A DNA stretch of 64,000 nucleotides from an uncultured Clostridium sp. (GCA_947641575.1 CANRQN010000005.1:6250-70249), one strand, 5' to 3'. Positions 2,651-2,830 are shown, numbered from the stretch's first letter. Numbers and translations: made by a program. Notes: generated by a model from the sequence alone, not told the origin.

Positions 2651-2830
2651 TCTAATAGTAAAGTTCTCCGAACTTCCTATTAGAGAAAAGAATTGCACAC
2701 AAATTTTACTTTGTAAAATTTGGCGCACGAACAACGGGCGTGGCATGAAACTAATCTAAAAAGTTAGAGTATTTTAAGTCATGCCACTGTTGTTCTGTAA
2801 TAGTAAAGTTCTCTAAACTTCCTATTATAT
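2651..2830. repeat. Composite structured repeat, family 2 type a (hairpin module + ~105-nt core + hairpin module)
   Basis: Hairpin modules taatagtaaagttctc..aacttcctatta at 2652-2683 and 2798-2827 bracket a core that is nearly identical to 47271-47383. The core holds hairpins caaattttac/gtaaaatttg and gaacaacgggcgtggcatga/tcatgccactgttgttc. Confidence 0.8.

What the first reader, a model, noticed from the sequence alone, without database searches (positions are those of the whole stretch)
2651..2830. Family-2 composite repeats: a shared hairpin module fused to two alternative ~105-130-nt structured cores (at least 5 loci)
The hairpin module ctaatag(g/t)aaagttctc..aacttcctattag occurs at 2652, 2798, 22981, 23149, 47237 and 59038, with a degenerate copy at 61905. 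It is fused to core type a (2691-2797 and 47271-47383, near-identical) or core type b (23014-23148 and 59072-59203, near-identical). Both cores share an architecture. Each has a short hairpin (caaattttac/gtaaaatttg versus gaaaaattgc/gcaatttttc). This is followed by GCGC and a long-range helix (gaacaacgg..tggcatga/tcatgcca..ctgttgttc versus acaaatct/agatttgt). The two cores differ in primary sequence but keep the same structure, which hints at a structured RNA or a DNA-level recombination substrate rather than simple junk.
Basis: seen in the sequence. Interest (0 to 1): 0.6.

Follow-up and report, generated by a model that had tools for sequence, protein, structure and literature searches.

The report
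Terminator-seeking hairpin repeat family
These repeats are a previously undescribed family of small, non-coding, mobile DNA elements of gut Clostridia that fold into three conserved hairpins and land right after gene terminators; they are the same kind of thing as the BOX, bcr1 and REP/BIME repeats of other bacteria, and no enzyme that moves them was found.

Summary
The 32-nt bulged hairpin H sits at seven places in the window. It is joined to core A (2684-2795, 47270-47381) or core B (23014-23145, 59071-59204).

- **Copy number.** The 1.42-Mb MAG holds 42 loci. About 22 are core A (19 full copies, mean identity 96.5%), about 11 are core B and about 10 are solo H. H is always 5' of the core, and all loci are intergenic.
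- **Structure.** Both cores fold into the same three-helix shape. Across 26 elements from many genomes, 16 of 38 base pairs show compensatory changes.
- **Not an RNA gene, on present evidence.** Rfam has no match. G-U pairs are no commoner than A-C. There are tandem arrays, truncated copies and mosaics.
- **Mobility.** Four loci are filled in one species and precisely empty in its sister species.
- **Target.** The element starts directly after the T-tract of an intrinsic terminator (p about 1e-20), including SAM and lysine riboswitch terminators. It ends at TTGTTC. I found no consistent target duplication and no terminal inverted repeats.
- **Distribution.** H occurs in 15 of 50 sampled genera of the family, and also in Lachnospiraceae.
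- **Mover.** IS200/RAYT, IS91, IS110 and reverse-transcriptase genes do not track copy number, so the mobilising enzyme is unknown.
- **A lead.** The H arm is identical over 15 nt to the XerC half of the Firmicute dif site.

Verdict: a new, unusually structured variant of a known kind of element.

The parts
2626..2648 (+). Host intrinsic terminator of the SAM riboswitch (stem 2626-2642 plus T-tract). This is the target the element abuts.
   Evidence: Rfam SAM riboswitch at 2504-2605. Terminator scan. Relatives keep this terminator directly before metK, with no element.
2650..2689 (+). Hairpin module H, copy 1 (core 2652-2683), with its 2-nt left extension and A-rich right extension.
2684..2795 (+). 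Core A: P2 hairpin 2701-2723, GCGC, and P3 long hairpin 2730-2795 that ends in TTGTTC.
   Evidence: 120.7 bits for 2645-2795.
2797..2834 (+). Second, slightly degenerate H (GTAATAG...CTATTAT), which makes this locus H-A-H.
22980..23019 (+). H module, copy 3 (core 22982-23013), directly after a terminator-like hairpin and T-run.
23014..23145 (+). Core B: P2 hairpin 23033-23055, GCGCG, and P3 acaaatct...agatttgt, with module M embedded.
   Evidence: 84.4 bits.
23150..23215 (+). Degenerate H (23150-23181) followed by the first ~30 nt of another core B, a truncated tandem unit.
47236..47275 (+). H module (core 47238-47269) directly after a terminator hairpin and T-tract.
47270..47381 (+). Core A, second copy; TTGTTC at 47376-47381.
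   Evidence: 135.4 bits.
59037..59076 (+). H module (core 59039-59070) after an AT-rich hairpin and T-run, downstream of a promoter-like site at 58974-59002.
59071..59204 (+). Core B, second copy; TTGTTC at 59199-59204. In another sample a core A end occupies this same junction.
   Evidence: 87.3 bits.
61902..61940 (+). Solo, degenerate H (CTTATAGTAAAGTTCTCCAAACTCCTTATTAT) directly after a terminator hairpin at 61862-61898.

Best explanation
Family 2 is a family of non-autonomous, non-coding mobile DNA elements of about 140-190 bp, built as a mosaic.

**Parts of a unit**
- P1: the sequence-conserved bulged hairpin H.
- A short conserved single-stranded motif, CATTSCACAG.
- P2: a short hairpin, followed by GCGC.
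- P3: a long hairpin whose foot is always GAACAA...TTGTTC and whose inside varies freely. This variable inside is what distinguishes cores A, B, C and others.

**What is shown**
- The unit H+core is present or absent as one piece between sister species.
- Its 5' end lies directly after the T-tract of a host intrinsic terminator, and its 3' end is TTGTTC.
- It has no terminal inverted repeats and no consistent target-site duplication.
- It forms head-to-tail arrays, H-core-H forms and truncated or fused mosaics.
- All three helices are kept by compensatory change.

**What is inferred**
- The hairpins are recognition structures needed for mobility. They are probably read on single-stranded or extruded DNA by an enzyme supplied in trans, and are not parts of an RNA gene.
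- The target is a hairpin followed by a T-tract.
- The element's own 3' end (GC-rich stem plus TTTTGTTC) imitates that target. This would explain the tandem arrays, and why insertion behind a terminator does the host little harm.
- The enzyme is unidentified.
For: **Census.** There are 42 loci in 1.42 Mb. H is always 5' of the core, and all loci are intergenic. Nineteen full core A copies average 96.5% identity; core B averages 82.6%.

**Distribution.** Core A is confined to this species, while H is shared by 8 of 24 congeners, where it is joined to other cores. H occurs in 47 of 401 genomes and 15 of 50 genera of the family. It also occurs in Lachnospiraceae MAGs and in cultured Konateibacter massiliensis, which has 16 copies.

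**Terminator adjacency.**
- For 105 non-tandem copies, the 32 nt upstream of the T-run fold at -9.3 kcal/mol, against -2.5 for control TTTTT sites.
- 60% of copies fold at or below -8, against 7% of controls (p = 1.5e-20).
- The G000 copies show the same pattern.
- Elements sit behind a SAM riboswitch terminator and a lysine riboswitch terminator.

**Mobility.** Four loci are filled in G334 and precisely empty in its sister G347. The outgroup G243 is also empty at two G334-filled loci; only one of these (L213) is among the four, so polarity is inferred for that pair only. At window position 59204 another strain carries a core A end where the window has core B.

**Structure.** Folding z-scores are -10 and -7.6. 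Sixteen of 38 pairs show double changes, and 0 of 500 shuffles reach the observed values. The H arms show compensatory variants across genera, with the loop CTCYG and the 1-nt A bulge conserved.

**Arrays and mosaics.**
Against: - No mobilising enzyme was found. No transposase ORF recurs beside H in about 120 loci. Y1, Y2, IS110 and RT genes do not track copy number. Phage, plasmid and IMG/VR collections hold no copy.
- The exact junction could not be fixed to the base, because the filled/empty pairs differ by about 10% in AT-rich flanks.
- Polarity (insertion rather than deletion) rests on parsimony with one outgroup.
- Transcription was not testable, so an RNA-level role is not excluded.
- Conservation of the architecture across two orders is stronger than expected for plain junk.
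Confidence: 0.65

Rival explanations
1. The elements are moved by an HUH single-strand transposase. They would be REP/BIME-like units mobilised by a RAYT, or PATEs derived from IS200/IS605. The enzyme would bind the bulged hairpin on single-stranded DNA and insert 3' of a short T-rich target without duplication.
For: - H is an asymmetric bulged hairpin with a conserved loop.
- There are no TIRs and no consistent TSD, and insertion is right after a T-rich pentanucleotide (TTTAT/TTTTT).
- G000 encodes two IS200 copies, two RAYT-like genes and one further Y1 gene. One RAYT-like gene lies 175 nt upstream of the 59039 copy.
Against: - PF01797 gives no match in 6 of 13 high-copy genomes that are 94-100% complete (36, 25, 14, 14, 11 and 8 copies). 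It does match in 8 of 13 zero-copy genomes.
- Each Y1 gene in G000 carries its own different hairpins: CCCCCAGC..GCTGGGGG, GTAG-GGGGCGATTTTAATCGCCC and gtgcgacaatgggg....
- H lacks the GTAG/CGTC tag.
- The two ends of the element, H and P3, are unlike each other, whereas IS200/IS605 ends share one hairpin.
Confidence: 0.12
2. The units are cassettes moved by a host tyrosine recombinase of the Xer type. H would be two back-to-back XerC-type half-sites. A circular H+core would recombine at a T-tract/TATA crossover region next to an H arm, so no element-encoded enzyme would be needed.
For: - The H right arm plus flank, ACTTCCTATAATATA, equals the first 15 nt (XerC arm plus 4 nt of the central region) of the S. 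aureus dif site. The variant ACTTCCTAGAATAT equals the first 14 nt of B. subtilis dif (PMC11040001; PMC3025954).
- The left junction of the insertions falls within 0-3 nt of the arm/central boundary.
- No transposase tracks the family.
- One insertion lies directly beside a resident solo H.
- Other observations that fit: H-core-H forms, arrays, and the A-for-B difference at one locus.
- Precedents: hairpin attP of CTX phage (own knowledge) and dif modules of Acinetobacter plasmids.
Against: - The arms face outward, not towards a 6-8 bp central region.
- The positions next to the presumed cleavage site (the ATAA end, the most conserved part of real dif sites) are exactly the ones that vary and covary in H.
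- The spacing from the arm to the next conserved motif varies from 9 to 16 nt.
- Targets are dispersed terminators, not dif.
- No canonical dif was found in 12 genomes of the group, so the hosts' own Xer site is unknown.
Confidence: 0.12
3. The units are functional structured RNAs, or act at the RNA level as terminator, insulator or leader modules that the host has recruited. In that case the copy number reflects usefulness rather than selfish spread.
For: - The three-helix architecture is conserved with covariation across two orders, even where the sequence has drifted to a GC-rich form.
- The single-stranded motifs CATTSCACAG and GCGC are conserved.
- In many relatives P3 looks like a terminator: a GC stem followed by TTTTGTTCT.
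- Several copies lie in leaders and would be co-transcribed, namely between the SAM riboswitch and metK and between a promoter-like site and gene 59224.
- bcr1 and BOX, the closest analogues, are transcribed.
Against: - No Rfam family matches at E <= 1.
- No conserved promoter was found.
- H lies behind a working terminator, so it would usually not be transcribed from upstream.
- G-U pairs (9) are not commoner than A-C (about 15).
- Neighbouring genes are unrelated.
- Truncated and fused copies exist, and presence differs between sister species.
- P3 of the window copies fails the simple terminator scan.
Confidence: 0.1

Closest known systems
BOX elements of Streptococcus pneumoniae (boxA-boxB-boxC) and SPRITE (PMC3049150)
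   Same: - Small (<200 bp), AT-rich, intergenic, multi-copy Firmicute repeats.
- Modular build with interchangeable or repeated middle modules.
- Strong predicted folds and an unknown mobilising enzyme.
- Enriched behind genes; SPRITE resembles a terminator.
- They cluster and insert into one another.
   Different: - BOX has TIRs and makes TSDs; family 2 shows neither.
- Family 2 abuts the T-tract of an existing terminator at zero distance.
- It has a sequence-conserved bulged hairpin at one end only.
- It is spread over many genera and two orders, not over two sister species.
bcr1 (group A bcr repeats) of the Bacillus cereus group (PMC3184786, PMC6542083)
   Same: - About 155 bp, in Firmicutes.
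- Independent stem-loops kept by compensatory changes.
- Variable distribution between close strains.
- Association with a TTTAT motif, and no known transposase.
   Different: - bcr1 is flanked by 5-bp direct repeats (TTTAT). In family 2, TTTAT lies only on the 5' side, and its partner ATAAA is the other strand of the same stem.
- I saw no sequence similarity, but the bcr1 consensus was not available to compare, because the original paper is not held.
- Terminator targeting is not reported for bcr1.
REP / BIME elements with RAYT transposases (PMC3733652, PMC3184786)
   Same: - Short imperfect palindromes, dispersed between genes.
- Combined with other motifs into mosaics.
- Often found behind genes, and thought to be handled as single-strand hairpins.
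   Different: - H has no GTAG/CGTC tag.
- No RAYT is flanked by H, and Y1 genes do not track H.
- The window's own RAYT-like gene has a separate GTAG-tagged REP set.
- Family 2 carries a long structured core.
Group IIC introns (PMC1702495)
   Same: They are located directly downstream of intrinsic terminator motifs (an inverted repeat followed by Ts). This shows that a mobile element can use a stem-loop plus T-tract as its target.
   Different: - Family 2 is 140-190 nt, with no intron domains and no Rfam intron match.
- It has no intron-encoded protein.
- RT genes do not track it.
Xer-dependent elements: dif modules of Acinetobacter plasmids and IMEX such as CTX phage (PMC13141974, PMC6449649)
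   Same: - Mobile units bounded by Xer-arm-like sequences that need no enzyme of their own.
- The H arm is identical over 15 nt to the XerC side of Firmicute dif.
   Different: - There is no complete 28-bp site, and the arms are back-to-back.
- Targets are terminators, not dif.
- The units carry no genes and are chromosomal.

Membership tests
MITE (miniature inverted-repeat transposable element) | Terminal inverted repeats at the two ends of the unit | tested here: not met
   The 5' end is (A/C)T(A)-TAATAGG... and the 3' end is ...TTTTGTTC. The ends are unrelated. H is a palindrome in itself, but it lies at one end only.
MITE (miniature inverted-repeat transposable element) | Target-site duplication of fixed length | tested here: not met
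   Four filled/empty pairs show no consistent duplication. A TA duplication fits one pair and fails three. The flank logo shows a T-tract on the left and T(A/T) on the right.
MITE (miniature inverted-repeat transposable element) | An autonomous IS with matching ends | tested here: not met
   No recurrent transposase ORF lies within 700 nt of H in about 120 loci. The IS200, RAYT and other Y1 loci of G000 have different ends. There is no copy in phages, plasmids or IMG/VR.
REP/RAYT system | A 20-40 bp imperfect palindrome with a conserved GTAG or CGTC tetranucleotide at one end | tested here: not met
   H has no such tag. A separate GTAG-tagged REP family does exist in the genome.
REP/RAYT system | A RAYT gene flanked by the repeats, co-occurring with them | tested here: not met
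   The RAYT-like genes are flanked by GTAG REPs, not by H. PF01797 is absent from 6 of 13 high-copy genomes.
IS200/IS605-derived PATE | Similar subterminal hairpins at both ends, insertion 3' of a fixed 4-5 nt target, no TSD, and a Y1 transposase present | tested here: inconclusive
   The absence of a TSD and the T-rich 5' flank fit. The two end hairpins differ, and Y1 genes do not track the family.
Mosaic intergenic repeats (BIME/BOX type, a descriptive class) | A palindromic unit combined with alternative modules in variable order and number | tested here: met
   Architectures seen: H-A, H-B, H-C, A-H-A, H-A-H, H-B-H, H-B-A fusion, solo H, solo module M, and 3-unit arrays.
Any Rfam RNA family (including group II introns, ribozymes, riboswitches) | Covariance-model match | tested here: not met
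   At the gathering threshold over the window, only the SAM riboswitch matches. At E <= 1 over four loci with 6 elements, only the SAM and lysine riboswitches and chance miRNA hits appear.
Xer (dif-type) recombination site | Two 11-bp arms facing a 6-8 bp central region, with conserved ATAA/TTAT inner ends | tested here: not met
   One arm plus 4 nt matches dif 15/15, but the arms are back-to-back, the inner ends vary, and no second arm lies at fixed spacing.
Xer (dif-type) recombination site | Binding and cleavage by XerC/XerD | not testable with these tools
   This needs EMSA and suicide-substrate assays.

The most novel reading that the evidence does not exclude
The elements would be transposase-free, non-coding cassettes moved by a housekeeping Xer-type tyrosine recombinase. 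H would supply two inverted XerC-arm half-sites, presented as a bulged hairpin, as CTX phage does with its attP. The enzyme would exchange strands at a T-tract that follows a stem-loop. This would make intrinsic terminators, and the element's own terminator-like 3' end, the attachment sites. That would be a new way for selfish DNA to spread in bacteria, and a new class of natural, structure-defined integration site.
Probability: 0.1. Interest if true: 0.8.

Novelty: new variant of a known kind. Interest (0 to 1): 0.45.

Why it matters
**Annotation and assembly.** The family fills about 30 sites per Mb in a reduced gut genome. It breaks assemblies, since several contigs end inside copies. It also sits in leaders such as the one between the SAM riboswitch and metK. 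Annotators of gut Clostridia MAGs should know it and mask or label it.

**Biology.** Three features make it unusual among small bacterial repeats:
- insertion at zero distance behind terminator T-tracts;
- a three-helix architecture kept by covariation, while the inside of one helix is free to change and so generates "alternative cores";
- spread across many genera and two orders without any recognisable transposase.

It therefore offers a tractable case for asking how non-autonomous elements move, with a cultured carrier (Konateibacter massiliensis, 16 copies). It is also a possible natural example of structure-directed integration at terminators.

Tried and rejected
- **Rfam.** The gathering and E <= 1 searches found nothing for the element.
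- **Partner transposase beside H.** Clustering ORFs within 700 nt of H in about 120 loci gave only housekeeping genes. A XerD-like gene appeared in 3 related genomes and was judged to be an orthologous context.
- **Enzyme co-occurrence.** I compared 14 H-rich genomes (G000 plus 13 others) with 13 H-free genomes. IS91/Y2 is absent. Y1, IS110 and reverse transcriptase show no correlation with H.
- **Other collections.** Phages, plasmids and IMG/VR gave no match. A metagenome scan for core A gave none.
- **Exact empty sites inside G000.** I looked for nested insertions into other repeats and found none.
- **Strain-level polymorphism by exact-protein look-up.** The species is rare. I recovered only one identical assembly and one 712-nt contig.
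- **Replication-strand bias.** 24 of 32 copies agree with GC skew, no more than genes do (80%), so this is uninformative.
- **Promoter inside the unit.** None is conserved on either strand (and reading the sequences).
- **Integron attC reading.** The AAC/GTT boxes are on the wrong side of the stem. Rejected by eye.
- **CodY, LexA and other operator readings of H.** Half-sites and spacing do not fit. Rejected from my own knowledge.
- **Canonical dif.** Not found in G000 or in 11 relatives.
- **Sequence motif in the literature.** No relevant paper. The bcr1 primary paper is not held.

Full report
**Setting**

The window is contig C5:6250-70249 of a 1.42-Mb, 50-contig MAG that is 81% complete and has 29% GC. 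Related records are uncultured gut Clostridia from humans, mice, rabbits and goats. Earlier notes on this genome describe a CGGN recoding that truncates standard ORFs such as metK. This affects only my crude gene calls.

**Observation**

The hairpin motif hits the window seven times on the + strand, at the stated positions. That is 7 hits against 0.63 expected, and 0 of 100 shuffles reach 7.

RNA and DNA folding give the same three-helix structure for A and B:
- P1 is H extended to about 21 bp with one bulged A.
- P2 is a 10-bp hairpin bracketed by GCAC...GCGC.
- P3 is a long hairpin closed by GAACAA/TTGTTC.
- The z-scores are -10.0 (RNA) and -11.4 (DNA) for A, and -7.6 for B.

**Census**

In the whole MAG there are 42 loci:
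- about 22 core A, of which 19 full copies average 96.5% pairwise identity;
- about 11 core B (82.6% identity);
- about 10 solo H;
- at least one copy of a third core, C.

H is always on the 5' side of the core. The architectures seen are H-A, H-B, A-H-A, H-A-H, H-B-H, an H-B-A fusion, a deletion that joins the left arm of H to the end of B, and solo H.

The middle of core B is a separate 56-nt module M, which also stands alone behind terminators at three places. All loci are intergenic. The genome as a whole has more than 200 short dispersed repeat regions.

**Distribution**

Core A is confined to this species. The H module is found in 8 of 24 congeners. There it is joined to a diverged core B or to core C, and it carries a compensatory arm change, AAAGTT/AACTT to AAATTT/AAATT.

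In a sample of 401 genomes of the order, 47 have H, covering 15 of 50 genera of the family. Among the other families of the order only two genomes gave hits, and these are weak and probably chance. The arms show at least six self-complementary variants. The loop CTCYG and the 1-nt bulge stay conserved.

A scan of species-representative genomes found more than 119 stretches. These include Lachnospiraceae MAGs and cultured Konateibacter massiliensis, which has 16 copies.

The general layout is:
- a host T-tract;
- a 4-6 nt covarying extension;
- H;
- the complementary extension and an A-run;
- the motif CATTSCACAG;
- P2;
- CGCG;
- P3 with a free interior;
- TTGTTC.

GC-rich versions in Lachnospiraceae keep the same plan. 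Arrays of up to three units with a 141-nt period occur.

**Structure is under constraint**

I aligned 26 non-redundant A-like elements from many genomes. RNAalifold recovers P1-P3, and 16 of 38 pairs show double changes.

On my stated structure:
- 96.9% of cells pair, against 86.3% in shuffles (0 of 500 shuffles reach the observed value).
- Only 38-47% pair when the partners are slid.

A covariance model from this alignment scores the window's A copies at 121-135 bits, the B copies (not in the training set) at 84-87 bits, and H alone at 23-48 bits. Both cores therefore share the architecture in a measurable sense.

G-U pairs (9) are not commoner than A-C (about 15). Nothing therefore points to one transcribed strand.

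**Where the elements sit**

For 105 non-tandem copies, the 32 nt just upstream of the T-run fold far better than those at control TTTTT sites:
- The mean is -9.3 against -2.5 kcal/mol.
- 60% fold at or below -8, against 7% of controls (p = 1.5e-20).

G000's own copies show the same pattern.

In the window, the first copy follows the SAM riboswitch terminator. Congeners have that terminator directly before metK, with no element. In a Lachnospira MAG, a copy follows a lysine riboswitch terminator.

Complementarity between the two flanks of H holds for 9 positions (TTTAT-NNNN / NNNN-ATAAA). Beyond that the left side stays T while the right side diverges. The outer T-tract is therefore host sequence.

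**Mobility**

G334 has 25 copies and its sister G347 has 11. Their flanks are about 90-95% identical.

At four of eight tested G334 loci the unit H+core is absent from G347, with the flanks contiguous. The more distant G243 is also empty at two G334-filled loci (L213 and L210). Only L213 is one of the four G347-empty loci, so insertion in the G334 lineage is inferred for that pair.

The inserted segment begins within 0-3 nt after the T-tract and ends at TTGTTC. The right flank begins with TA. No duplication of fixed length is seen. One insertion lies directly 5' of a resident degenerate solo H, which produces an H-core-H form like window 2652-2830.

In another sample of the window's own species, a core A end occupies the exact junction where the window has the core B end (...ttgttc|tatataggagag). 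This is either a swap or a tandem addition.

**Search for a mover**

- No transposase ORF recurs near H.
- G000 has five Y1-family genes, but each has its own different hairpins. The one in the window (58400-58864) is RAYT-like and is flanked by GTAG-tagged REPs.
- Across 14 H-rich genomes (G000 plus 13 others) and 13 H-free genomes:
  - Y2/IS91 is essentially absent;
  - Y1 is missing from 6 H-rich genomes and present in 8 H-free ones;
  - genuine IS110 is found in only 7 of the 27;
  - RT genes are found equally in both groups.
- Copies in two Y1-free genomes are about 88-95% alike. Those copies may therefore be older than G000's core A burst.
- The family is absent from the phage, plasmid and IMG/VR collections.

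**A lead**

In many relatives the H right arm with its flank reads ACTTCCTATAATATA. This equals the first 15 nt of the S. aureus dif site. A variant equals the first 14 nt of B. subtilis dif.

The left junction of the insertions lies at the arm/TATA boundary, where a XerC-type enzyme would cut. The geometry, however, is not that of a Xer site:
- The arms are back-to-back.
- The inner ATAA positions are the ones that vary.
- There is no second arm at fixed spacing.

No canonical dif was found in 12 genomes of the group. I keep this as the boldest reading, not the best one.

**Comparison with known elements**

The family behaves like BOX and SPRITE of pneumococci, bcr1 of the B. cereus group and REP/BIME. 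It fails the defining tests for a MITE (TIRs, TSD, parent IS) and for REP/RAYT (tag, flanked RAYT). Its target choice parallels that of group IIC introns, but it has no intron features. I found no description of it.

**Limits**

- Junctions are known only to within about 3 nt.
- The enzyme is unknown.

Noticed in passing
window 58296-58892: A RAYT-like gene lies at 58400-58864 (NF047646 58 bits, below the curated cut-off of 80; PF01797 29.9 bits). It is flanked by inverted GTAG-tagged hairpins, GTAGGGGCGATTTTAATCGCCC, at 58296-58317 and 58871-58892, and by inverted flanks about 100 nt long. A second copy is on contig C16. The genome holds 10 such REPs, including a compensatory variant, GGGGAGATTTTAATCTCCC.
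   Followed up: partly
L050, L061 and many other loci; H arms in window 2672-2689, 47258-47275, 59059-59076: In many relatives the H right arm plus flank is identical to the first 15 nt (XerC arm plus the start of the central region) of the S. aureus dif site. A variant matches the first 14 nt of B. subtilis dif. The window's own H (ACTTCCTATTAGATA) differs from this at 2 positions. No canonical dif (<=3 mismatches) was found in G000 or in 11 related genomes, including closed ones.
   Followed up: partly
G000 contigs C7:8510-8565, C8:13312-13356, C18:6974-7026; window 23067-23122 and 59124-59179: A 56-nt module (TTTACGCTTCTTCGAGACCTTAAATTAGAAGTGTAAAATATTAATAGTAGAGAAAA) forms the middle of core B. 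It also stands alone directly behind terminators, so core B is itself composite.
   Followed up: partly
whole genome G000: More than 200 regions of short dispersed repeats with 3 or more copies occur in 1.42 Mb, belonging to several families beside this one. Several contigs end inside family-2 copies (C20, C28), so the repeats limit the assembly.
   Followed up: no
window 58974-59002: A near-consensus promoter-like site (TTGACA-17-TAGAAT) lies upstream of the H-B element, which places that element in the leader of the cytidylate-kinase-like gene at 59224. A perfect TTGACA-17-TATAAT at 2471-2499 drives the SAM riboswitch, so the H-A-H element lies in the metK leader.
   Followed up: no
window 2882-3388: The metK frame stops after 168 aa under the standard code. 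Earlier notes on this genome attribute such breaks to CGGN being read as glycine. I did not test this here.
   Followed up: no
G000 C17:10633-10965 (locus L003): A third kind of Y1-family gene (239-aa frame) is flanked by inverted copies of gtgcgacaatggggacggttctctttgtcgcac. Similar genes of 233-275 aa occur in many genomes of the family.
   Followed up: no
G000 C2:23070 (- strand): The 17-mer ACTTCCTAGAATATATA, identical to the first 17 nt of B. subtilis dif, lies inside what looks like coding sequence and has no XerD-type arm after it. This is unexplained and may be chance.
   Followed up: no
locus L055 4864-5106 (Lachnospira MAG): A lysine riboswitch (109.8 bits) is followed by its terminator and then directly by a GC-rich family-2 element. 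This mirrors the SAM riboswitch case in the window.
   Followed up: partly
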